Shown here one piece after another: positions 8,268 through 42,529 of a stretch of DNA of 44,281 nucleotides (the stretch's first letter is position 1; every line of letters begins with the position of its first letter). The DNA comes from Candidatus Aenigmatarchaeota archaeon (GTDB lineage Archaea > Aenigmatarchaeota > Aenigmatarchaeia > PWEA01 > JAGHBM01): positions 1 through 44,281 of the forward strand of contig JAGGZI010000014.1 in NCBI GenBank assembly GCA_021162085.1, read 5' to 3'. The notes under the pieces were generated by a model. The model searched no databases. It worked only from the letters and a program-made list of their open reading frames with translations, and was not told the origin of the DNA. Position numbers and translations under genes: made by a program.

Positions 8268-8470
8268 TGGTGCCTGGGGTGGGTCAACCATTTCCCCAGA
8301 AAACGCTTTGCGTCTTCAAGTTTTGGGAAGTACAGAGACCTTTTTTGAAAAAGGGATCTGTTTTCGAACCCACGACCTCTAGATTTCTCACCATATCATA
8401 ATCCTCTCAGACTCATCACTCATAACTTTTGTTATGAGTCTAGCGCTCTAACCAACTGAGCTACCCAGGC
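8268..8470 (-). tRNA. tRNA-Met(CAT), elongator type, 2 introns (37/38: 8385-8432; T-loop ~59/60: 8285-8362)
   Basis: Spliced GCCTGGGTAGCTCAGTTGGTTAGAGCGCTAGACTCATA/ATCTAGAGGTCGTGGGTTCGAA/ACCCACCCCAGGCACCA; BHB helix CUCA/UGAG at the anticodon intron. Confidence 0.88.
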
Positions 8471-8533
8471 ATCTGAGATTCTAATTAGAGTTTCTTTTCA
8501 TACAACACTTTTCTTTGTGAAAGAAAAGGTTGT

Positions 8534-8796
8534 TGGTGGACCCGGGGAGATAAGGGAAACTTGAAAAGTTTCCAAGTTCTTTCCCTTGAGGCTTTCTTTT
8601 GAAGAAAGGCTCATTTGAACTCCCGACCTCTACGTAGCCCTTTTCCGCATACGCACAGAAGCGTTAACGGAAAATTTATCAGCGTAGCGCTCTAATTACC
8701 CACACTTTTCTTTTTCTCACAAACTTGACTGAAGTTTCTTTTCCCACAGTCTTTTCTTTGTGAAAGAAAAGCTGTTCCAAGCTGAGCTACGGGTCC
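8534..8796 (-). tRNA. tRNA-Ile(GAT), 3 introns (D-loop: 8696-8776; 37/38: 8636-8676; 59/60: 8551-8613)
   Basis: Spliced GGACCCGTAGCTCAGCTTGG/TTAGAGCGCTACGCTGATA/ACGTAGAGGTCGGGAGTTCAAA/TCTCCCCGGGTCCACCA forms a complete cloverleaf. Confidence 0.88.
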
Positions 8797-8949
8797 ATTG
8801 TAAATTAATTTTTATGCAATCTATAAAAAAGTTTCCCTTCCATTCAAGGCAATGTATACTCAAGACCTGAGAAAGAAATAAGGATAAAAATCGATGCCTT
8901 ACTACACACCGACATTTAAAAACAAAAAATTTTGGTGGACTTGTCGGGA

Positions 8950-9100
8950 CTCTCTCGAACCTGCAGGGGGCAAGCCCCCTTCAGTTTTACGGTATTCCTG
9001 ATATCTTCCCTTCCTTTTAAAATTGGCAAACTTTCAGTTTGCCCAAAATTGTTTCTTTGGGAAATACAAAAACCTTTCTTTCAAAAGAAAGGGATTTGTC
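8950..9100 (-). repeat. T-loop intron of tRNA-Ala, near-identical to the tRNA-Arg T-loop intron (42244-42397)
   Basis: About 100 consecutive identical nt from ttcagttttacggtattcc to aaaacctttcttt. Confidence 0.95.
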
Positions 9101-9133
9101 TTTGAACCCGAGACCTCCGCCGCTCTCAGACCA

Positions 9134-9287
9134 TTCACCAAGCCAGTTTCCGTTGACGTCTTGAGATTTTATCTCAAGTATTTGGAACATTGAGTTCCAA
9201 AACTTTACGCCGAGTAAAGGGTCATCCAAGTTTTCTGACTTCACCAAGCCAGTTTCCGTTGACGCTTTACGCCGAGTAAAGGGTCAT
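9134..9287. repeat. 48-bp direct repeat inside the tRNA-Ala anticodon intron (9240-9287 intact; 9134-9225 interrupted by a 44-bp insert at 9159-9202)
   Basis: ttcaccaagccagtttccgttgacg|ctttacgccgagtaaagggtcat is present twice. Confidence 0.95.
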
Positions 9288-9393
9288 GCGAAGGCGGCGC
9301 TCTTCCAACTGAGCTACAAGCCCATAATTAATTTTTCCTATCAATAATAGTTTTCTTTCGTACAACTCTTTCTTTTTCTAAAAGAAAGGTTGT

Positions 9394-9662
9394 TGGTGGG
9401 CCCGCCGAGATCTCCACGATGACGTACACTTCGTGCACGTCAAGCTATCTTTGAATTCCCGACACCCTTTCTTTTTTTCACAGTCTTTATCAAAGTTTTC
9501 TTTGACCGTAGACGACTTTCTTTTGTGAAAAGAAAGGAGTCTCTCGGGTCGCCAGCACCCCAAGCTGAAATGCTAGACCACTCCAGGGGACACCTACGGT
9601 TTCCCCTTAGGGTAACCTCTTCCCTTTCTAGAGCGCTAAGGGCTTAGCTACACCACGGGCCC
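9394..9662 (-). tRNA. tRNA-Pro(GGG), 3 non-canonical introns (D-loop: ~9581-9646; 53/54: 9456-9542; 59/60: 9411-9449)
   Basis: Spliced GGGCCCGTGGTGTAGC/TGGTCTAGCATTTCAGCTTGGGGTGCTGGCGACCCGAG/TTCAAA/TCTCGGCGGGCCCACCA; BHB helices CCCG/CGGG and UUCA/UGGA. Confidence 0.85.
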
Positions 9663-9747
9663 ATGATTAAATTTATGATATTTTTCTAAATATATTGATA
9701 TAGAAACATTTTTAAATCAATTCGCACTATTTTTATTAGGTGAAAAA

Positions 9748-10410
9748 ATGGCAATGGGAGCTTTAACAACGATAGGAGCAAACCTTTGGTATTCGTTCCT
9801 GGACTTTCTCCCGAACCTAATAGGAGCAATAATCTTACTAATAGTGGGCTACATAGTAGGAAAAATCAGTGGAATAGTGGTCAGAGAGATTCTAATAAGA
9901 GTTGGTGTAGACAAGTATCTCCAAAAGGAAGAACATATTAAATTCAAGACAAGTACAGTGTTCGATGTGATAACAAGATGGTTCTTGTATATAGTATTCA
10001 TCAATGCAGCGATAGAAGTACTTGGTATATCATCCCTAGTGGATGTAATGCATACAATAATATACTTCATACCAGGAGTAGTTGGAGCAGCAATAATAAT
10101 AATTGCAGCATACGGAGTTGGACTGTACATAAAGGAAGAAATACTATCATCAAAAACAATATACTCTGATATAGTAGGGAAGACCATATTCTTCTTAATA
10201 GTGTATCTTGGAGTTGCAGTGGCACTACCGTTGGTTGGAATTAATCCAACTATAGTAAACGACATACTCTTAGTGATAATAGGTTCGCTTGGACTAGGAC
10301 TAGCAATAGCACTTGGACTTGGATTAAAGGATGTCATAAGGGACATGGCAAAGGATTACGCAACTGAGTTCAGGGCGAAGAGAAAGAGGATGAATAGAAG
10401 AAGGAAGTGA
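9748..10410 (+). CDS. TM_helix-repeat membrane protein (CmpX/MscS-transmembrane-like)
   Basis: FLPNLIGAIILLIVG and FIPGVVGAAIII repeats, C-terminal AIALGLGLKD. Confidence 0.8.
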   Translation: MAMGALTTIGANLWYSFLDFLPNLIGAIILLIVGYIVGKISGIVVREILIRVGVDKYLQKEEHIKFKTSTVFDVITRWFLYIVFINAAIEVLGISSLVDVMHTIIYFIPGVVGAAIIIIAAYGVGLYIKEEILSSKTIYSDIVGKTIFFLIVYLGVAVALPLVGINPTIVNDILLVIIGSLGLGLAIALGLGLKDVIRDMAKDYATEFRAKRKRMNRRRK

Positions 10411-10500
10411 GAATTCTTTTTCCCTTTTTTTAATTTTTATTTCAATTAGAATTAAATATATAAACTATTTTATTGTTTAATAAAATTAAGATGTGATTTT

Positions 10501-12894
10501 ATGTTACCTAAGAAATATGATCCAAAGTCTATTGAAGACAAATGGAAAAAAATGTGGGAAGAGATGGGAATATATAAATTTAACCCCGATTCTGATAAAC
10601 CCGTATTCAGCATAGATACACCGCCAAGATATGCTTCTGGATACCTTCATATGGGTCACGCCAAGAACTACATAGAGTTTGAAATAATTGCAAGGTTCAT
10701 GAGAATGATTGGATATAATGTGTTCCTTCCAAATGGTTATGATGATAATGGACTTCCAACAGAAAAATACGTTGAAGAAAAACTGGGAATGAACAAAAAG
10801 GATGTTGATAGGAAAACTTTCATAGACAAATGTAAATGGGCCGCAGAAAGATTGGAAGAAAGAATGACAAAGACGTTCAAAGATATAGGATTCTCATGTG
10901 ACTGGTCTACGCTGTACAGAACCATAAGTGACTATGCTGTGAAGATGGCTCAAATGTCATTCATAGAGCTTTATAAAAAAGGAGAGATATACAGAAAGGA
11001 GGAACCAACTCTATGGTGTCCACACCATCAAACGGCACTCGCCCAGGCAGAGGTTGTGGACCTACCAAGGAAAACAAAACTAAATTACATATTATTTGAA
11101 TTGGAGGATGGAAAGAAAATAGAGATAGCAACCACCAGACCCGAGCTACTACCATCCTGTGTTGGGATATTTGTTAATCCTGATGATGACAGGTATAAGG
11201 ATCTTGTCGGGAAAAAAGCTATTGTACCCATATTCGGCCAGAAGGTCCCAATAATGGCTGATAAAAAAGTTGACAAAGAATTTGGTTCTGGAATAGTCAT
11301 GATTTGTACATTCGGAGACACTACAGATATAGAGTGGTGGAGGGAGTACAACCTTCCCATGAAGATATCAATAAATAAGGACGGTACCATGAACGAACTT
11401 GCAGGAAAGTATGAGGGACTAAAAATAGAAGATGCAAAGAAAAAAATAATAGAAGACCTAAAAGAATCTGGTTTACTAATAAAACAAGAAGACTTGGAAC
11501 AAACTGTTGGATGTTGCTGGAGATGCGAAACTCCAATAGAATTCATACCAACAAAGCAGTGGTTCATAAAAACCTTGGAACATAAGGATAAAATGATTGA
11601 ACTTGGTAGAAAGATAAATTGGAGACCAGAATATTACAGAAAACGATACGAGGACTGGGTGAGAAACCTCAAGTGGGACTGGTGTATATCAAGGCAAAGA
11701 TACTTCGGTGTGCCTTTCCCATTGTGGTACCGAAAAGATACCGGTGAGGTAGTTCTTGCCAAGGAAGAGGACCTTCCAGTCGATCCAAGAATCCAGAGAT
11801 GCCCATATGACAATGGTGATTCAGAGTGCATACCGGAAATGGATGTTATGGATACGTGGATGACTTCATCACTCACCCCACAAATAGTATCCAAGTGGAA
11901 AATTGATGATAAATTCTTTAATAAAATATTTCCAATGAGCCTTAGGCCTCAAGCACATGACATAATAAGGACATGGGCATTTTATACCATCCTCAAATCT
12001 TATCTTCATAATAATTCAATACCGTGGAAAGACATAATGATATCTGGATACGTTTATGTTGATAAGGGACTTGCCATGAGTAGCAGTAAGGGAATAGGTG
12101 ATGACCCTGAAAAAATAGTTGAGAGAGACGGGGCAGATGCCCTTAGATATTGGACAACTGAGGCAAGCCTTGGAGAAGACCTCATATACAGGGAAAAGGA
12201 TATAATAAGAGGTAAAAAAATTCTCATAAAATTATGGAATGCGTCAAGATTCGTGGAAATGCATCTTAAGGACTACAAACCAAAGGAAGTGAAGCTCAGA
12301 GTAACTGATAAGTGGATACTGAATGAAATGTACAAGGCTGCTGAAGAAAGTAAGGAAGCATTTAAAAATTATAATCCTAACAAAGCCCGTAAGGTCATAG
12401 AAATTTTCTTCAAAAATATCTTCTGTGATTTCTATCTTGAGATGGTGAAGCACCGACTGTATAACGATGTTGAAAAAGAATCAGCTCAATATACGCTTTA
12501 CAACGGCCTCTTGGGAATACTCAAAATGTACGCACCTATAATTCCCTTCATAACGGAAGAGATTTATCAGAATATGTTCAAAGAAAACGAAAAAGATAAA
12601 TCCATTCACACATCAAGGTGGCCAGAGACAGGAGAGATAGACGAAGAAGTAATTGAAATAGGCAGACTTGGTGTTTCCATAATCACTTATTTAAGGCAGC
12701 ACAAAACAAAAAATAATCTTCCATTAAATCAAGAATTAAATGAGATTGTAATAGAATGTGACAAGGAAACTGAGAAGAAGATAAAGCTCATAGAAGATGA
12801 CATAAAATGGACGATGAAGATTAAAGAAATAAAATTTGAAAAAACAAAGAATGGAATAGGAATTGGTTCTCTGAAGATAGAGGTTAGAGAATGA
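10501..12894 (+). CDS. valS: Valine--tRNA ligase (archaeal type)
   Basis: FSIDTPP..SGYLHMGH, ATTRPELL, DWCISRQRYFG, LRPQAHDIIRTWAFYT. Confidence 0.96.
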   Translation: MLPKKYDPKSIEDKWKKMWEEMGIYKFNPDSDKPVFSIDTPPRYASGYLHMGHAKNYIEFEIIARFMRMIGYNVFLPNGYDDNGLPTEKYVEEKLGMNKKDVDRKTFIDKCKWAAERLEERMTKTFKDIGFSCDWSTLYRTISDYAVKMAQMSFIELYKKGEIYRKEEPTLWCPHHQTALAQAEVVDLPRKTKLNYILFELEDGKKIEIATTRPELLPSCVGIFVNPDDDRYKDLVGKKAIVPIFGQKVPIMADKKVDKEFGSGIVMICTFGDTTDIEWWREYNLPMKISINKDGTMNELAGKYEGLKIEDAKKKIIEDLKESGLLIKQEDLEQTVGCCWRCETPIEFIPTKQWFIKTLEHKDKMIELGRKINWRPEYYRKRYEDWVRNLKWDWCISRQRYFGVPFPLWYRKDTGEVVLAKEEDLPVDPRIQRCPYDNGDSECIPEMDVMDTWMTSSLTPQIVSKWKIDDKFFNKIFPMSLRPQAHDIIRTWAFYTILKSYLHNNSIPWKDIMISGYVYVDKGLAMSSSKGIGDDPEKIVERDGADALRYWTTEASLGEDLIYREKDIIRGKKILIKLWNASRFVEMHLKDYKPKEVKLRVTDKWILNEMYKAAEESKEAFKNYNPNKARKVIEIFFKNIFCDFYLEMVKHRLYNDVEKESAQYTLYNGLLGILKMYAPIIPFITEEIYQNMFKENEKDKSIHTSRWPETGEIDEEVIEIGRLGVSIITYLRQHKTKNNLPLNQELNEIVIECDKETEKKIKLIEDDIKWTMKIKEIKFEKTKNGIGIGSLKIEVRE

Positions 12895-13439
12895 TAATTG
12901 AAAAGGTTAGAGAGTTCGTCACCAAGTCCTGTGAGGATGATGAAGTAAAGCATCTCGAACGAACATTATACTGGATTAAAGAGTTAAAAAGTTGTGCCAA
13001 TGAAGCACTAAAAATAGCCGCCTTAACTCATGACATTGACAGATGTTTAAAGAATGAAGGATGTGCGGATGACTTTAAAAAAGTAAGACACTCTCCAAAC
13101 TCAAAATACTACATGGAACATCAGAAAAAATCCGCAAGAATAGTCTCAAATTTTTTAGAAAACATTAATGCCGATGAAAACTTAATTAAAGAAGTGACAT
13201 TCCTAATAGAACATCATGAATCTGGTGGAACTCCTGAAGCTGATGTACTAAAAGATGCAGATAGCTTGAGCTTCTTCGAGAACAATGCATATTCGATCCT
13301 TGAAAAGTTTGCTAAATTAGATAAAGAAACTGTGAAAGAGAAGTTTGACTTCATGTTCAATAGAATATCGTCTGAGAAAGCCAAGAATATAGCAAAGCCC
13401 ATGTATGAAAAATTAATTAAGAAGTTGGAAGAAATTTAG
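12891..13439 (+). CDS. HD-domain protein (DUF4202-like)
   Basis: H...AALTHDIDR...H...HHE...LKDADSLSFFE. Confidence 0.75.
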   Translation: MIIEKVREFVTKSCEDDEVKHLERTLYWIKELKSCANEALKIAALTHDIDRCLKNEGCADDFKKVRHSPNSKYYMEHQKKSARIVSNFLENINADENLIKEVTFLIEHHESGGTPEADVLKDADSLSFFENNAYSILEKFAKLDKETVKEKFDFMFNRISSEKAKNIAKPMYEKLIKKLEEI

Positions 13440-13476
13440 TAATCTTTTTTAATTTAATTATTACTTTTCTATTAAG

Positions 13477-14691
13477 GTGTTAACTATGGAAGAAAAGAAA
13501 TACAAACTTAAAAAAATCGTGGACGAGCTTAGAGAGAAGAGCGGAAGACATACAGAATTAATTAGTCTTTACATTCCTCAGGGATTTAATCTTAACGAGA
13601 TAAGCAACCTTATATCGCAGGAAATATCACTCACACAGAACGTGAAGAGCAAGACTGTGAGAAAAAACGTTATCTCCGCCTTAACGAAAATACAACAATA
13701 TTTAAAACATTACAGACAAACACCACCAAACGGTCTTGTGATTTTTTGTGGAAATGTCTCAGAGAAGGAAGGTGAGACTGACATAAAGATATGGGCTCTT
13801 GAGCCACCGGAGCCGATAAAGATGAAACTATACTGGTGCGATCAAAAATTTGAATTGGGCCCATTGGAAGAAATGATGAAGGAGAAAGATGTTTATGGAC
13901 TCATAACCCTTGATAAAAGTGATGCGACTCTTGGGATACTAAGAGGGAAAAAAATAAACATAATCAAGAGGCTTCATTCAATAGTTCCTGGTAAAACGAG
14001 AGCAGGTGGCCAGAGTTCTGCAAGGTTTCAAAGAGTTAGAGCAGGACTTCTTAATGACTTCTTAAAAGAGATTGGAGAGAACTTCAAAAAAGTTTTTTCT
14101 GAAGAAGATATAAAAGGGATAATCGTAGGTGGCCCCGGACCAATAAAAGAAAAATTTGTTAATGAGAACTACATACCAGAAAATTTAAAGAAAAAAATAA
14201 TTGGAATAAAAGATATTGGATACAGTGACGAATATGGACTTGAGGAATTATTAAACAGGTCACAAGACCTTTTAAAAGAGGCTGAAGTGGCAAAAGAGAA
14301 AGAATTGTGTGAAAAATTCTTTGACGAGCTGAAGAGAGATACGGGCAAAGCAACATATGGATTAGAAGATGTAAAGAAAGCAATAGAAATGGGGGCTGTC
14401 GAAACTGTCCTTATCTCAGAAGGACTTGAAATTGAAGAAGTTGAATACGAATGCTCATGTGGTTATAGAGAAAAGAAGTTCGTGAAAACTAATGAGAAGG
14501 AAAATCAAAAATGTCCTAAATGTGGTGATACCATGAAAATAATTGGAGAGGCCGATATAGTTGATGTACTCGAGGATATGGCAAAGGAAACAGGTGCTAA
14601 AATTGAAATAATATCAAGAGATACATCAGAAGGAGAAAGACTGTACCTGATGGGAGGAATTGGAGCAATACTGAGATTTCCTATAGAGTAG
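13477..14691 (+). CDS. prf1: Peptide chain release factor aRF1
   Basis: GRHTELISLYIP, NVKS (NIKS-like), YWCD, GGQSSARF, Zn-ribbon insert; start may be ATG 13486. Confidence 0.96.
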   Translation: MLTMEEKKYKLKKIVDELREKSGRHTELISLYIPQGFNLNEISNLISQEISLTQNVKSKTVRKNVISALTKIQQYLKHYRQTPPNGLVIFCGNVSEKEGETDIKIWALEPPEPIKMKLYWCDQKFELGPLEEMMKEKDVYGLITLDKSDATLGILRGKKINIIKRLHSIVPGKTRAGGQSSARFQRVRAGLLNDFLKEIGENFKKVFSEEDIKGIIVGGPGPIKEKFVNENYIPENLKKKIIGIKDIGYSDEYGLEELLNRSQDLLKEAEVAKEKELCEKFFDELKRDTGKATYGLEDVKKAIEMGAVETVLISEGLEIEEVEYECSCGYREKKFVKTNEKENQKCPKCGDTMKIIGEADIVDVLEDMAKETGAKIEIISRDTSEGERLYLMGGIGAILRFPIE

Positions 14692-14709
14692 TATGATTAC
14701 TACCTTTCT

Positions 14710-15183
14710 CTACTTCTTTAAGTTCTCCACATAGTCTGCTGCATTTCTCAAGGCAGTTGAAAATCCTGGATTAACTCCTATAACTACAACCTTCTTTCCA
14801 TACTCCTTCGCCTTAAGCACAACAGGCATGAAATCCGCATCTCTTGTTGCAATTGCAATTATATCAACGTTTGGATTGAAGACACCTTCCATAACAGATG
14901 CCCCCATCGATGCATCTACATCACTCTTTTGCTCGTTCTTTTCTCCACCCATCTCTATTATTGGTTCAAATCCCTGACTTGCAACAGCCTCTATGAGCTT
15001 TTCAGAGGCAAATTGATTAAGGAAAACCTTTGCTATTATTATTCTCCCGTATTTTTCAAGCTTTTTTCTAAGGTTCTCAAGATCCAAATTAAACTCCTTT
15101 CTAAGCAGATTTGGTCCATCAACATAGAGAGCTATATTCCTTTCTGACCTCTTATGAACTTTTTCCTTAACAATACCCAACAT
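14710..15183 (-). CDS. NYN domain protein (TIGR00288 family)
   Basis: VDGPNLLRKEF, DVD, TRDADF, GFSTALRNAADY. Confidence 0.9.
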   Translation of the reverse strand: MLGIVKEKVHKRSERNIALYVDGPNLLRKEFNLDLENLRKKLEKYGRIIIAKVFLNQFASEKLIEAVASQGFEPIIEMGGEKNEQKSDVDASMGASVMEGVFNPNVDIIAIATRDADFMPVVLKAKEYGKKVVVIGVNPGFSTALRNAADYVENLKK

Positions 15184-25990: not shown

Positions 25991-26228
25991 TGGTGCGCCA
26001 GCCGGGACTTCCACCCTACGGAGGGACACCAAGGTTTCCCTCCTTATGGGTATATTCTCCCTTCCTTTTAAAATTGGCAAAAGCGAAGCTTTTGCAAGTT
26101 CTTTCCTATTGCCCTTTCTTCTGAAGAAAGGCAATTTTGAACCCGGGTCTCGAGCTGTCTCCACTCCAACTCATTTGACTGAGTAAATTGCTTGGGAAGC
26201 TCGGGTCCTACCACTAGACTACTGGCGC
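25991..26228 (-). tRNA. tRNA-Gly(CCC), 2 introns (37/38: 26157-26192; 59/60: 26008-26135)
   Basis: Spliced GCGCCAGTAGTCTAGTGGTAGGACCCGAGCTTCCCA/AGCTCGAGACCCGGGTTCAAA/TCCCGGCTGGCGCACCA; BHB helices UUCC/GGAG and UUCA/UGGA. Confidence 0.92.
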
Positions 26229-26273
26229 ACAACAAATATTTATAATTTTCTCTTTATTATATCTTAGGGTGTT

Positions 26274-28891: not shown

Positions 28892-29130
28892 TGGAGCCCC
28901 GGGCCGGACTCTCACCCTACGGAGAGACAAAACGATGGACTTAGGCAGAGCCTAAGTCAGTTTGTCGTTTCCCTCCTTATGGGAATATCCTCCCTTCCTT
29001 TAAAAAATATAGGAAAACTCTTCGAGTTTTCCAAGTTCTTTCCCTTGAGGCTTTCTTCTGAAGAAAGGCTCATTTGAACCGGCGATCTTCCGCTTACGAG
29101 GCGGACGCATTACCACTATGCTACCGAGGC
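28892..29130 (-). tRNA. tRNA-Thr(CGT), 1 long T-loop intron (59/60: 28909-29072)
   Basis: Spliced GCCTCGGTAGCATAGTGGTAATGCGTCCGCCTCGTAAGCGGAAGATCGCCGGTTCAAA/TCCGGCCCGGGGCTCCA; BHB helix UUCA/UGAG. Confidence 0.93.
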
Positions 29131-37355: not shown

Positions 37356-37700
37356 TTACTTCCAAAGAGGCAAGGAACCCGTGATTTTATCTATGTCTTT
37401 TTCCTTTGCTGGCCCAATCCCAAGGCACGTTATCGTCCCACTTGGAAGTTCGGTTCTTCCCGCATCACTTATGAGCACATGTGGAAGTTTCATCTTCTCT
37501 GCCTTCTTTTTCAAATCCAACAACCCTTTCTTACCATTAACACTTAGAACAACTTTTTTCTCTCCCTCAAGCCTCCATATGCCTCTCACCAGCTTATTAG
37601 ACTTTCTCCATGAGCCAAGCGATGCATGTGCAACCTGGGCAGCAAGTTTTCCTGGACTCAAATTCAAATCTTTTCTCACAACTATGACCTGTTTGTACAA
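37356..37700 (-). CDS. pth2: Peptidyl-tRNA hydrolase Pth2
   Basis: KQVIVVRKDL..SPGKLAAQVAHA, DAGRTEL..GTITCLGIGP. Confidence 0.95.
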   Translation of the reverse strand: MYKQVIVVRKDLNLSPGKLAAQVAHASLGSWRKSNKLVRGIWRLEGEKKVVLSVNGKKGLLDLKKKAEKMKLPHVLISDAGRTELPSGTITCLGIGPAKEKDIDKITGSLPLWK

Positions 37701-37715
37701 TTTACTCCACCTACT

Positions 37716-37810
37716 TAATTAAAGTTTTCTTTTCTAAAGTCTTTTCTTTTGATTTGCGACTAAAGTCGCAAATTTTGGGATGCAATCCCAAAATGAAAAG
37801 AAAAGCTTTA
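37716..37810 (-). repeat. Intergenic copy of the tRNA-intron hairpin module with a nested twin-hairpin insert
   Basis: taattaaagttttcttttc-taaagtcttttcttttg[insert 37752-37793]tgaaaagaaaagcttta; matches 8482-8533, 8734-8775 and 9350-9393. Confidence 0.8.
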
Positions 37811-38599
37811 CGGAACCATCATTCCAACCTTCAGCATATCCCTCGTGCCGAGGGCAAGACCCAAAATTAATATTGCTATCTTTAGCCAATTTCTGAATCC
37901 CTCATCCTCCACGTACTTATCTATCAAGTAAAGCACTGGCCAAACTATGAAAATTTTTAATGGAAACATTATCCATGGTCCAGTGAATCCAATTAGGAAC
38001 GTTGGAAGAACGTGCTGTTCTGCATAACCAAAGAATGTTAGCGCAACAAACGTGGAGCTCCCATCAAATAAATGTGAAACCAGTATTGAATAGTTCATCC
38101 TTGAAAGGTATTTTGGAAATTTAAGATGAATTGGAGCAAAAACTGCTGCCCACATACCCACAAGACCTAATATCATCAAAACACCTCTCCAATTTCTCAA
38201 TCCAAATAAAAAAACCTCGTAAAGGTTGAAAGCGCACAGGATGGTTCCAGTTATCAACATAGTCTTCCAATAATCGAACTTGAATTTCTTTTGAATGAGC
38301 GCTGAAATAATCAAAATAGCAAGTGTCACAAAAAACAGAGTTACGTATATACCAGGAGAGACAAAGAAATACCCGTGATAAAATCCTGCATCTTCCAGAG
38401 CCCTCATTATGCCTCCAAGAAATATGAATGGAACCAATGAAAGGATAAAATTCTTATCAACCTTCATTTTCATTTTTTTAAGTATGTACTTGTAAACAAG
38501 AAATACTGCTACAACAAAAATCAGTGCATAAACTATGGTGGCCGGGAGAGTGTAGTAATGCCCCATTGGCTGCAAAAAATATTTCTCTATGAAACCCAT
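37808..38599 (-). CDS. DUF63 family membrane protein
   Basis: Y...TIVYA, GGIMRALEDAG, VSPGIY, HLFDGSST, Y.EQHVLP, LGLA.GTRD. Confidence 0.88.
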   Translation of the reverse strand: MGFIEKYFLQPMGHYYTLPATIVYALIFVVAVFLVYKYILKKMKMKVDKNFILSLVPFIFLGGIMRALEDAGFYHGYFFVSPGIYVTLFFVTLAILIISALIQKKFKFDYWKTMLITGTILCAFNLYEVFLFGLRNWRGVLMILGLVGMWAAVFAPIHLKFPKYLSRMNYSILVSHLFDGSSTFVALTFFGYAEQHVLPTFLIGFTGPWIMFPLKIFIVWPVLYLIDKYVEDEGFRNWLKIAILILGLALGTRDMLKVGMMVP

Positions 38600-42226: not shown

Positions 42227-42529
42227 TGGTGCCCCTGCCGGGACTTTCACGAACCCGCAAGGAACCTACGGTTCCTTTCAGTTTTACGGTATTCCTGATA
42301 TCTTCCCTTCCTTTTAAAATTGGCAAACTTTCAGTTTGCCCAAAATTGTTTCTTTGGGAAATACAAAAACCTTTCTTTTGAAAGAAAGGGATTTGTCTTT
42401 GAACCCGGGTCCCAGCCTTTCTACTTTGCGCTGAGTAAAGGGCCACTTCTACAAGCCAGTTTGATGAATCTTTATGCCGAGTAAAGATTCTCCGCAGGGC
42501 TGTATCCTATCCAGCTAGACTACAGGGGC
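42227..42529 (-). tRNA. tRNA-Arg(GCG), 2 composite introns (37/38: 42419-42491; 59/60: 42244-42397)
   Basis: Spliced GCCCCTGTAGTCTAGCTGGATAGGATACAGCCCTGCGG/AGGCTGGGACCCGGGTTCAAA/TCCCGGCAGGGGCACCA; BHB helices CUGC/GUAG and UUCA/UGAA. Confidence 0.9.
42244..42397 (-). repeat. T-loop intron of tRNA-Arg, near-identical to the tRNA-Ala T-loop intron (8950-9100)
   Basis: Direct alignment; differences are confined to hairpin tips and the splice-junction end. Confidence 0.95.

What the first reader, a model, noticed from the sequence alone, without database searches (positions are those of the whole stretch)
37716..37810. The intron module has escaped tRNAs: a copy at the DUF63 stop codon, upstream of pth2
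taattaaagttttcttttc-taaagtcttttcttttg...tgaaaagaaaagcttta matches the tRNA-Ile trailer (taattagagttttcttttc, 18 of 19 nt) and the Ile D-loop intron hairpin (acagtcttttctttgtgaaagaaaagctgt). It has the same orientation relative to transcription. Its loop holds a 42-nt twin-hairpin insert (atttgcgac-taaa-gtcgcaaat and tttgggat-gca-atcccaaa) with the same architecture as the 44-nt insert in the Ala intron. The DUF63 TAA stop lies in the element's outer stem. Inference: the family is a general mobile hairpin element that may be spliced from, or trigger cleavage of, mRNA.
Basis: partly seen in the sequence, partly recalled or inferred. Interest (0 to 1): 0.85.

Follow-up and report, generated by a model that had tools for sequence, protein, structure and literature searches.

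The report
rRNA intron fragment inserted between genes
A 97-base piece of this archaeon's own ribosomal-RNA intron has recently been copied into the stop codon of a protein gene, which gives a rare before-and-after view of how archaeal intron sequences move around a genome.

Summary
The nested hairpins are real. They lie at 37713-37809, sense on the minus strand; fold z = -5.4.

The element is 95 of 97 bases identical to bases 1-97 of a 124-base bulge-helix-bulge (BHB) intron in this genome's own 23S rRNA gene. The likeness starts at the intron's first base.

A same-genus genome has the empty site...CCGTAG GTGGATTAAA TTG. Exactly 97 bases were added between T and AG of the DUF63 stop codon, and T plus the insert's first two A's make a new TAA.

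A covariance model built without this copy scores it at 50 bits. Of 28 strong matches in the genome, 26 are in tRNA introns or trailers, one is the 23S intron, and this is the only one between protein genes.

The copy lacks the intron's last 27 bases, which make the closing helix and the BHB. No comparable BHB is present, so splicing or endonuclease cleavage of the mRNA is not supported.

I read it as a recent, probably inert insertion in the DUF63-pth2 spacer. In a distant relative, G022, the same hairpin family sits beside protein genes at least 10 times, so a general mobile hairpin element remains possible. How it moves is unresolved.

The parts
37713..37809 (-). The inserted 97-nt unit. 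It equals bases 1-97 of the 124-nt 23S rRNA intron (C4:14655-14751).
   Evidence: blastn finds 95 of 97 identical. It is absent from the same-genus locus L004, and the net insertion is 97 nt. CM R1 scores it 50.3 bits, E 1.2e-8.
37808..38599 (-). DUF63 membrane protein gene. Its TAA stop (37810-37808) is made of the ancestral T plus the first two A's of the insert.
   Evidence: ORF list. Pfam PF01889, E 8.3e-67. The relative has TAG at this place.
37791..37809 (-). 5' arm of the outer stem (sense AAAGCUUUUCUUUUCAUUU).
   Evidence: Inverted repeats I1 and I2. Fold.
37741..37755 (-). First purine-rich 3' partner of the outer stem (sense AAAUCAAAAGAAAAG).
   Evidence: Inverted repeat I1: 15 nt, 93%.
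37725..37734 (-). Second, alternative purine-rich partner (sense GAAAAGAAAA), the one used in the minimum-energy fold.
   Evidence: Inverted repeat I2: 10 nt, 100%. Fold.
37772..37794 (-). Inner hairpin A of the twin-hairpin insert (AUUUUGGGAU-UGC-AUCCCAAAAU).
   Evidence: Inverted repeat I6.
37752..37773 (-). Inner hairpin B of the twin-hairpin insert (AUUUGCGACU-UU-AGUCGCAAAU).
   Evidence: Inverted repeat I5.
37713..37725 (-). Small hairpin 2 (ACUU-UAAUU-AAGU). The insert ends at its last base.
   Evidence: Read from the sequence. The equivalent in the 23S intron is ACUU-UAAUG-AAGU.
37705..37711 (-). Shine-Dalgarno-like GGTGGAG of pth2. It belongs to the ancestral 10-nt spacer.
   Evidence: The same spacer, GTGGATTAAA, is in L004.
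37356..37700 (-). pth2 (peptidyl-tRNA hydrolase 2), TTG start at 37700-37698.
   Evidence: ORF list. Pfam PF01981, E 3e-37. The relative also starts with TTG.
8712..8778 (-). Family member in the D-loop intron of tRNA-Ile(GAU).
   Evidence: Sequence. CM 63.3 bits.
8468..8535 (-). Family member that forms the spacer between the encoded CCA of tRNA-Ile and the next tRNA (CAU anticodon).
   Evidence: Sequence. CM 61.7 bits.
9332..9395 (-). Family member in a second tRNA trailer or spacer.
   Evidence: 50.8 bits. The same trailer is present in G001.
9473..9542 (-). Family member inside a tRNA, between the anticodon arm and the T arm.
   Evidence: 63.8 bits.

Best explanation
The element is a recent DNA insertion. 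Bases 1-97 of the 124-nt BHB intron of this organism's own 23S rRNA gene were copied into the DUF63 stop codon, between T and AG of an ancestral TAG, 10 nt upstream of the pth2 start. This intron belongs to a hairpin-module family that fills the genome's tRNA and rRNA introns and tRNA trailers. The insert's first two A's restore a stop (TAA), so neither protein changes. The old 10-nt coupling spacer with its ribosome-binding site now lies 3' of the insert. The copy has the intron's 5' end and both hairpin domains. It lacks the last 27 nt, which in the 23S gene pair with the intron's 5' end and with exon 1 to form the BHB that the splicing endonuclease cuts. Most likely, therefore, it is not excised and rides in the DUF63-pth2 transcript as a compact three-way junction. 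Its paired ends keep the stop codon and the pth2 ribosome-binding site close together, which may be why it is tolerated. Shown: the homology, the donor-like intron and its exact splice junction, the empty site, the family census and the missing BHB. Inferred: that the copy is not spliced and is neutral, that the two genes are co-transcribed, and how the copy was made.
For: Homology. blastn finds 95 of 97 identical between C23:37809-37713 and C4:14655-14751. The bases just outside both ends differ (read).

The C4 copy is a true intron. cmscan places a 125-nt insertion in a hairpin loop of domain V. Two relatives (G002, G003) have an uninterrupted 23S reading GCAGCA|GCAGCC. Two others (G004, G007) carry a different intron of about 78 nt at the same site. 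My scan finds a BHB there: TGGCTG t GCAG [CAA] AAGCTTTTCTTT ... AAGGGAAAGTTT CTGC [AAG] CAGCCA. It predicts a 124-nt intron that begins AAAGC.

Empty site. Same-genus G001 reads ...atgatggttccgTAG GTGGATTAAA ttgtac. G000 reads ...ccgT[97 nt]AG GTGGAGTAAA ttgtac. The six other relatives whose junctions I printed have gaps of -1 to 50 nt and no element.

Census. CM R1 was built from 22 other members, without this copy, the 23S copy or the tRNA-Ala copy. It gives 28 matches of 40 bits or more and then nothing above 27 bits. By my reading of the flanks these are 11 in D-loop introns, 8 in T-loop introns, 3 between the anticodon and T arms, 4 in tRNA trailers, 1 in 23S, and this one.

The junctions are real in the raw data. 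Logan contigs of run X2 bridge both with 0 differences (records 7 and 10). Separate contigs carry the 23S copy and run on into 23S exon 1.

No BHB. At the expected 5' cut the only candidate has helices of 4 and 3 bp and would require melting inner hairpin A.

Age. The copies differ at 2 of 97 bases, while DUF63 is only 82% identical in protein between G000 and G001.
Against: No RNA data exist for this organism in the runs offered, so excision, cleavage, transcript ends and co-transcription are all untested.

Some archaeal endonucleases accept relaxed motifs (PMC5829648, passages read). My scan required a 4-bp central helix with two 3-nt bulges and could miss an unusual substrate.

The donor is inferred. 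The genome is 87.6% complete, so an unsampled copy could be the true source, and gene conversion between the two copies could make the insertion look younger than it is.

The Logan contigs may come from the same sample as the assembly, so they are not independent support.

Neutrality is an assumption. Three T4 runs directly after the stop codon, or the stable structure, could affect termination or pth2 translation.

Only one genome carries the insertion, so selection on it cannot be tested.
Confidence: 0.75

Rival explanations
1. The family is a mobile hairpin element that moves as DNA, like a MITE or a palindrome-associated element. Introns are simply the copies that landed in RNA genes and survive because they can be spliced. 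On this reading the 97-nt copy is a complete short form of the element that transposed into the spacer, not a piece derived from an intron. This differs from the best explanation only in source and mechanism.
For: The insert ends exactly at structure boundaries: the foot of the big stem and the last base of hairpin 2. Short forms without an intron tail also occur as tRNA trailers directly after the encoded CCA, 4 of the 28 strong matches. A 3-nt direct repeat, GTA, can be drawn around a 94-nt core. Hairpin modules are swapped inside introns that keep their position: the tRNA-Ile T-loop intron has different interiors in G000 and G001. In G022, 10 of 21 inspected copies lie beside protein-coding frames, and 8 of the 9 copies there that begin CAAATCC or CAAAGACC are preceded by TAA. 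G022 also has Y1 transposase fragments at three contig ends. The family has expanded in this genome: 28 copies against 1-10 in the seven genomes of the same family.
Against: No Y1 transposase was found in G000 or G001 (the genomes are 87.6% and about 85% complete). No constant target sequence flanks the G000 copies. The GTA repeat is short enough to be chance or microhomology, roughly 1 in 64. The likeness to the 23S intron begins within one base of the splice site, which a transposon model explains only if the intron's end is also the element's end. All 22 copies inspected in genomes of the same family are in tRNA or rRNA genes.
Confidence: 0.3
2. The copy was made from the excised intron RNA. 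A DNA end at a break in the stop codon primed on the intron RNA by microhomology and copied it to its 5' end. That would explain a 5' boundary exactly at the splice site and a 3' truncation.
For: The 5' boundary coincides with the 5' splice site to within one base, and the 3' end is internal to the intron. The junctions share only 1-2 bases with the target.
Against: No reverse transcriptase (Pfam RVT_1) was found in the genome (87.6% complete). The apparent likeness between the intron tail and the target, including a CAAGCAG 7-mer, is not significant: 702 of 2000 shuffles score as well. The 3' end coincides with a hairpin boundary, which RNA priming does not predict.
Confidence: 0.15
3. The element acts in the mRNA. 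It could be a relaxed-BHB intron or an EndA cleavage site that separates the DUF63 and pth2 cistrons, or a terminator, attenuator or stabiliser taken over from the intron family.
For: BHB introns in mRNA have precedent: cbf5 (PMC2738675, listing and abstract seen) and the 5' UTR of HVO_1309 (PMC7714728, passages read). The structure is stable. There are two alternative purine-rich partners for the 5' arm and three T4 runs right after the stop codon. Related hairpins follow tRNA genes, and in G022 they follow stop codons of protein genes.
Against: No BHB is present. The tail that forms it in the 23S intron is missing. The Rfam tRNA model does not match here even at E up to 10. The same-genus relative manages with a 10-nt spacer, so the locus needs no such element. 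This is the only such copy in the genome.
Confidence: 0.08
4. Assembly artefact: reads from the 23S intron were wrongly joined into the DUF63-pth2 contig.
For: The repeat is 97 nt and almost identical to the 23S copy, and coverage is low, about 3-6x.
Against: Contigs from the raw runs bridge both junctions with 0 differences. The two copies are kept apart by their differing bases, and the 23S copy continues into rRNA exon sequence. Both flanks match the ancestral spacer exactly as far as the insertion point.
Confidence: 0.02

Closest known systems
tRNA intron families that 'transpose' among tRNA genes in Thermoproteales (Fujishima et al. 2010, Mol Biol Evol; not read, known to me through passages of the review PMC4090602 and the preprint 10.64898/2026.10.13.758758)
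   Same: Near-identical intron sequences occur at different positions in different RNA genes of one genome. This implies recent copying, and the mechanism is unknown.
   Different: Here a copy lies outside any RNA gene, at a site with no BHB, and a relative preserves the empty site. Only the 5' 97 of 124 nt were copied. The same family also supplies rRNA introns and tRNA trailers. The organism appears to be a small-genome archaeon whose nearest named record is an Aenigmatarchaeota MAG, not a crenarchaeon.
BHB introns in archaeal mRNAs: cbf5 pre-mRNA in Crenarchaeota (PMC2738675) and the 5' UTR intron of HVO_1309 in Haloferax volcanii (PMC7714728)
   Same: A sequence of the intron kind lies inside a protein-gene transcript. 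In HVO_1309 it lies in an untranslated part.
   Different: Those have a BHB and are shown to be cut or spliced. This copy has no recognisable BHB and lacks the part of its parent intron that builds one.
Small non-autonomous hairpin repeats in prokaryotes, such as REP elements, MITEs and the palindrome-associated elements moved by IS200/IS605 Y1 transposases (recalled; not tested against any library)
   Same: A short, strongly folding, multi-copy unit with a filled and an empty site, whose ends sit at the feet of hairpins. In G022 there are many copies between genes, along with Y1 transposase fragments.
   Different: In this genome 27 of the 28 strong copies lie in RNA genes or their trailers. 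No transposase was found, there is no constant target, and no clear target duplication.
Introner elements and other transposon-derived introns of eukaryotes (PMC11282704, listing only)
   Same: The idea that one mobile sequence family appears both as introns and as ordinary insertions.
   Different: Those use spliceosomal splicing and are eukaryotic DNA transposons. Here splicing would be by the protein endonuclease at a BHB.

Membership tests
Hairpin-module family of this genome's tRNA and rRNA introns (model R1) | Hairpin 1 with CUUUUCUUU / AAAGAAAAG arms on a 4-5 bp basal stem, then a repeat of the purine arm (GAAAAGAAAC), then a small second hairpin. | tested here: met
   CM R1 was built without this copy and scores it 50.3 bits, E 1.2e-8. 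That puts it among the 28 matches of 40 bits or more; the next best match scores 26.9 bits. Compensatory changes occur in 5 of the 9 modelled pairs of hairpin 1.
Hairpin-module family of this genome's tRNA and rRNA introns (model R1) | Lies in a tRNA or rRNA gene or directly after one. | tested here: not met
   It lies between DUF63 and pth2. No tRNA is found here by ARAGORN or by Rfam at E up to 10.
Functional archaeal BHB intron | A bulge-helix-bulge, or a relaxed form of it, at the two ends: a 4-bp helix flanked by 3-nt bulges and outer helices. | tested here: not met
   My scan recovers the 23S BHB (outer helices of 6 and 12 bp). At this locus it finds only chance-like candidates with helices of 2-4 bp at the expected 5' cut. 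The 27-nt tail is missing.
Functional archaeal BHB intron | The mature RNA lacks the sequence, and relatives or cDNA show the joined form. | not testable with these tools
   No RNA run is listed. The relative's shorter spacer is an empty DNA site, not a spliced RNA.
Functional archaeal BHB intron | The host encodes the splicing endonuclease. | tested here: met
   PF01974 matches at C51:18841-19119, 97.4 bits, in a 198-aa open frame.
MITE or palindrome-associated mobile element | Filled and empty sites with defined ends. | tested here: met
   A 97-nt net insertion relative to G001.
MITE or palindrome-associated mobile element | Target-site duplication or a constant target sequence. | tested here: inconclusive
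   The junction can slide over GTA (3 nt), which may be duplication, microhomology or chance. The flanks of the G000 copies share no motif. In G022, 8 of the 9 copies that begin CAAATCC or CAAAGACC follow TAA.
MITE or palindrome-associated mobile element | A transposase in the genome that could move it. | tested here: not met
   PF01797 (Y1_Tnp) gives 0 matches in G000 and G001 and 3 fragments in G022. PF00078 gives 0 matches in G000. The genomes are incomplete, and other transposase families were not searched.
tRNA-like processing signal | A match to the tRNA covariance model. | tested here: not met
   No RF00005 match at 37700-37815 at E up to 10.

The most novel reading that the evidence does not exclude
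In this archaeal lineage, BHB introns are the spliceable form of a mobile hairpin element that also colonises tRNA trailers and spacers between protein genes. On that reading, the insertion at 37713-37809 is a transposition caught outside an RNA gene. It shows the element's own ends (the foot of hairpin 1 and the end of hairpin 2). It would also imply that the BHB-forming tail is a site-specific addition needed only inside RNA genes. That would give a concrete, testable route for how archaeal introns arrive, which the literature I read calls unknown.
Probability: 0.3. Interest if true: 0.8.

Novelty: new variant of a known kind. Interest (0 to 1): 0.62.

Why it matters
How archaeal BHB introns spread is an open question. 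[quoted passage not shown] I read passages of both.

This locus offers a young copy (2 differences in 97 bases), a donor-like intron in the same genome with an exactly defined splice junction, and an empty site in a sister genome. Together these show three things:
- Intron sequence can land where no BHB exists.
- The moved piece starts at the intron's first base and ends at a hairpin boundary.
- The BHB-forming tail did not come along.

With the G022 observation, this points to one hairpin family living both as introns and as intergenic repeats, which can be tested by comparative genomics.

For the two genes themselves the event is probably of little consequence.

Tried and rejected
Promoter idea. 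The insert carries a purine tract followed by CTTTAATTAAG, which looks like a BRE and TATA box. It lies only about 20 nt before the TTG start, and in the tRNA spacer the like motif is about 15 nt before the tRNA. A start of transcription at the usual distance would fall inside the gene. The distance rule is recalled, and I did not run the promoter scan. Rejected.

In-frame fusion by splicing. I checked by hand which 3' cut points would join DUF63 to the pth2 frame. No BHB supports any of them. The one tidy candidate in the scan (GGTT [CCG] TAAA ... TTTG AATT [TGA] GTC, 153 nt) has helices of 3 and 4 bp and joins out of the pth2 frame. Rejected.

Homology-guided insertion. MAFFT aligned the intron tail plus exon 2 with the target's downstream sequence, sharing CAAGCAG. 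A local-alignment test gave 702 of 2000 shuffles scoring as well, and 71 of 329 windows of the relative's locus scored as well. Rejected.

More filled and empty pairs. Two attempts with tRNA-trailer copies on C54 and C46 were uninformative, because the trailer is present in G001 or the region is rearranged.

RNA evidence. No RNA holder was listed.

Population variation. The four DNA runs laid, all from one study, show no joint that skips the element. Coverage is thin and contigs drop rare variants, so this says nothing about an empty-site allele.

The covariance model holds only the 9 pairs of hairpin 1, because MAFFT did not put the basal stems in register. It is therefore little better than the profile HMM, which gave the same census.

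Literature searches listed no paper describing BHB-intron-derived copies outside RNA genes, or a hairpin repeat family in Aenigmatarchaeota. These searches cover only the held library. Supplements were not consulted, and Fujishima et al. 2010 was not available to read.

The D-loop, T-loop and trailer assignments are my reading of flanking tRNA hallmarks, not output of a tRNA finder. C16:6715 and C51:42 look like the same locus at two contig ends, so the 28 may be 27.
Full report
THE OBSERVATION. Both flanking genes are on the minus strand: DUF63 (37808-38599, Pfam PF01889, E 8.3e-67) and pth2 (37356-37700, PF01981, E 3e-37, TTG start). So the element is read in sense from 37810 downwards. The sense sequence runs in this order:
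- CCG UAA AGCUUUUCUUUUCA
- hairpin AUUUUGGGAU-UGC-AUCCCAAAAU
- hairpin UUUGCGAC-UUUA-GUCGCAAA
- UCAAAAGAAAAGACUUU AGAAAAGAAAACUUUAAUUAAGU AGGUGGAGUAAA UUG

The repeat finder confirms the outer stem, a second alternative purine-rich partner, and the two inner hairpins. The 104-nt RNA folds into a three-way junction at -31.7 kcal/mol, z = -5.39, and 0 of 200 shuffles fold as well. It matches nowhere else in the window without a gap, but the trailer itself exists and is related.

WHAT THE WINDOW AND GENOME ARE LIKE. ARAGORN finds no tRNA in the window. Across the whole 790-kb genome (58 contigs, 37.4% G+C, 87.6% complete) the Rfam tRNA model gives only 15 matches at E up to 10, and 2 of them pass the family cut-off. 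Reading the sequence shows why: the tRNA genes are broken by several introns each.
- tRNA-Ile(GAU), about 8796 to 8534 on the minus strand, has introns in the D loop, the anticodon loop and the T loop.
- It is followed by a 63-nt structured spacer and then a tRNA with a CAU anticodon.
- tRNA-Thr(CGU), starting at 29130, has a T-loop intron of about 150 nt.

The nearest named record found with the DUF63 protein is a Candidatus Aenigmatarchaeota MAG at 51% identity. I take this as a hint to the group, not an identification. The runs that hold the window are labelled hydrothermal vent metagenome.

THE CLOSEST RELATIVE OF THE ELEMENT IS A 23S rRNA INTRON. A motif scan and then blastn against the genome found a twin of the element on contig C4. 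C4:14655-14751 is 95 of 97 identical to C23:37809-37713, twin-hairpin insert included. Contig C4 carries 16S rRNA (8913-10653), 23S rRNA (12002-15131) and RNase P RNA.

The twin lies inside domain V of 23S, where the archaeal LSU model shows a 125-nt insertion in a hairpin loop. It is a genuine intron:
- Relatives G002 and G003 have an uninterrupted gene reading CCTGGCTGTGCAGCA|GCAGCCAAGGG.
- G004 and G007 carry a different intron of about 78 nt at the same site, with similar ends.
- My BHB scanner finds TGGCTG t GCAG [CAA] AAGCTTTTCTTT ... AAGGGAAAGTTT CTGC [AAG] CAGCCA. That is a 4-bp helix between two 3-nt bulges, with one extra U opposite the second bulge.

Cutting inside the bulges gives a 124-nt intron, C4:14655-14778, and exactly the junction seen in the intron-less relatives. 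The rule that the cut falls after the second bulge base is recalled; the alternative register gives the same mature sequence. So the likeness to the window's element begins at the intron's first base (the bases before it differ: A against T). It ends at base 97, the last base of a small second hairpin (ACUU-UAAUG-AAGU in 23S, ACUU-UAAUU-AAGU here). The intron's last 27 bases, CTGTGATAGAAGGGAAAGTTTCTGCAA, have no counterpart in the window. These bases pair with the intron's 5' end and with exon 1 to close the BHB.

THE EMPTY SITE. DUF63 followed by pth2 is a conserved arrangement. By tblastn, DUF63 is found on 13 of the 20 fetched pth2 loci, the window's own included. I printed 8 junctions.
- Same-genus G001: ...atgatggttccgTAG GTGGATTAAA ttgtacaagcagg
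- G000: ...atgatggttccgT [AAAGC ... 97 nt ... TTAAGT] AG GTGGAGTAAA ttgtacaaacagg

The net difference is exactly 97 nt, the same 97 nt that match the 23S intron. The insertion split the ancestral TAG. T plus the insert's AA gives TAA, so the DUF63 protein still ends ...MMVP. The old 10-nt spacer with its GGTGGA ribosome-binding site is intact downstream.

The junction can slide over three bases (GTA), so a 3-nt duplication, microhomology and chance cannot be told apart. The other six relatives printed have gaps of -1, -1, 22, 46, 49 and 50 nt. A DNA search with the 97-mer finds nothing at those loci.

Contigs built from the raw runs bridge both junctions without a difference (run X2, records 7 and 10). 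The 23S copy appears separately and continues into 23S exon 1. These runs may include the assembly's own source.

The two copies differ at 2 of 97 bases. G000 and G001 are only 82% identical in DUF63 protein. So the insertion, or the last exchange between the copies, is much younger than the split of the two genomes.

THE FAMILY. A profile HMM and a covariance model R1 agree. R1 was built from 22 members and deliberately left out the finding, the 23S intron and the tRNA-Ala intron. R1 gives 48 matches at E up to 1. Of these, 28 score 40 bits or more and the next scores 26.9 bits. The finding scores 50.3 bits and the 23S intron 61.5.

By my reading of the flanks, the 28 are:
- 11 in D-loop introns
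- 8 in T-loop introns, one of them the tRNA-Ala(UGC) intron on C4 that also carries the twin-hairpin insert (63 nt, 98%)
- 3 between the anticodon and T arms
- 4 in tRNA trailers that begin right after the encoded CCA
- 1 in 23S rRNA
- the finding

Two of the D-loop hits look like one locus at two contig ends. Hairpin 1 shows compensatory changes in 5 of 9 modelled pairs. By eye the basal stems also co-vary (ACAG/CTGT, AAAG/CTTT, AGAG/CTCT, ACAA/TTGT). I looked at 14 of the weaker matches (18-27 bits). Ten were related T-loop introns or trailers, and four looked like chance hits in coding sequence. A looser hairpin scan adds 16S intron copies and no other copy between protein genes.

So in this genome the finding is the single copy outside RNA genes and their trailers. 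The family is richest here: 28 copies at E up to 1e-4, against 9, 6, 3, 10, 1, 2 and 3 in the seven genomes of the same family. It is present in 4 of 17 more distant genomes searched. All 22 copies I inspected in the same family lie in tRNA genes (19), tRNA trailers (2) or 16S rRNA (1).

A TWIST FROM A DISTANT RELATIVE. G022 is in the same class but another family. It has 47 matches at E up to 0.5. I inspected 21:
- 10 lie beside protein-coding frames
- 4 are in tRNA introns
- 2 are in tRNA trailers
- 5 are unclear

Three of the ten begin right after a stop codon (TGGTAA|CAAAGACC, GAATAA|AGCC, TGGTAA|AGGC). In two of those three the element begins AG directly after the TAA, the same TAA-AG sequence as in the window, where the two A's of the stop are the insert's own first bases. 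Seven lie on the opposite strand with their end two bases from a start codon (GGGATTTG-TT-ATG), one of them before ribosomal protein L19e. One G022 subfamily (CAAATCCCTTTCTTT...AAAGAAAGGTCTTTGTA.. CCCAAAGAAA) is nearly the same sequence that sits in T-loop introns of G000. G022 also has fragments of a Y1 (IS200/IS605-type) transposase at three contig ends; G000 and G001 have none. This keeps alive the idea that the family is a mobile hairpin element whose copies in RNA genes persist as introns. I did not follow it further.

IS THE COPY SPLICED OR CUT? I see no support.
- The scan that recovers the 23S BHB, with outer helices of 6 and 12 bp, finds only weak, chance-like configurations at this locus.
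- At the expected 5' cut the single candidate (TTCC [GTA] AAG ... TTT GGGA [TTG] CATC) would need inner hairpin A to melt.
- The part of the parent intron that forms the BHB is absent.
- The tRNA model does not match here.
- The genome does encode a splicing endonuclease. DPANN enzymes with broad specificity are described (PMC5829648, passages), so an unusual substrate cannot be excluded without RNA data, and none were available.

BHB introns in mRNAs are known for cbf5 (PMC2738675, abstract) and for the 5' UTR of HVO_1309 (PMC7714728, passages). Both have a BHB.

HOW IT WAS MADE is not resolved.
- An RNA route would explain the exact 5' end: priming on the excised intron and copying to its 5' end. 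But no reverse transcriptase was found, and the one apparent guide homology is not significant.
- A DNA route would explain why both ends sit at hairpin feet and why tail-less short forms occur as trailers: a hairpin element cut at the feet of its hairpins. But no transposase or constant target was found in this genome.
- Module exchange is clearly frequent. The tRNA-Ile T-loop intron sits at the same position in G000 and G001 with different interiors, and the spacer after tRNA-Ile is wholly different in the two.

VERDICT. The 'escape' is real, and it now has a donor-like intron, an empty site and defined ends. The proposed action on mRNA is not supported. I rate it a new variant of a known kind (intron copying in archaea), of moderate to high interest, because it bears directly on the unknown route by which archaeal introns spread (PMC4090602 and 10.64898/2026.10.13.758758, passages).

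Noticed in passing
whole genome G000; window 8270-9540, 26084-26230, 28900-29130, 42326-42395: Almost every tRNA gene is broken by several introns (D loop, anticodon loop, T loop, and between the anticodon and T arms). ARAGORN finds none in the window. The Rfam tRNA model gives 15 matches genome-wide at E up to 10, and only 2 pass its cut-off.
   Followed up: partly
G022 loci L072, L088, L095, L096, L101, L104, L106-L109: In this distant relative the same hairpin family lies beside protein-coding frames. Three copies begin at or right after a TAA stop. Seven lie antisense with their end two bases from an ATG (GGGATTTG-TT-ATG). Eight of the 9 copies that begin CAAATCC or CAAAGACC are preceded by TAA.
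   Followed up: partly
G022:C3:117685-117783, C4:548760-548858, C2:6-98: Fragments of a Y1 (IS200/IS605-type) transposase lie at three contig ends, which suggests a multi-copy insertion sequence that broke the assembly. None was found in G000 or G001.
   Followed up: no
L002 (contig C4) about 9258-9318 and about 9925-9960: The 16S rRNA gene is 1741 nt against a 1478-position model. It carries at least two short insertions built from the same purine/pyrimidine hairpin modules. G004 has a family member at the second of these sites.
   Followed up: partly
window 8534-8620 versus L091 1600-1700: The T-loop intron of tRNA-Ile sits at the same position in G000 and G001 and keeps only its first 2 and last 4 bases. 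The interior is a different hairpin module in each. The spacer after tRNA-Ile is also entirely different.
   Followed up: partly
L037/L041 (G004) and L038 (G007), 23S rRNA: At the same 23S site these relatives carry a different intron of about 78 nt with similar 5' and 3' ends. G007 has a further gap of about 960 nt in the match a little upstream, possibly a large intron.
   Followed up: no
window 28950-29060, 26030-26084; C51:28400-28476: Several long T-loop introns share a further conserved module (...CAATTTTAAAAGGAAGGGAGGATAT.CCCATAAGGAGGGAAAC...). I do not know what it is.
   Followed up: no
L024 (G001:C34:3760-3820): The 42-nt twin-hairpin insert, at 90% identity, sits in the T-loop intron of a long-arm tRNA in the same-genus genome. 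The nested insert therefore predates the split of the two genomes and moves with hairpin 1.
   Followed up: partly
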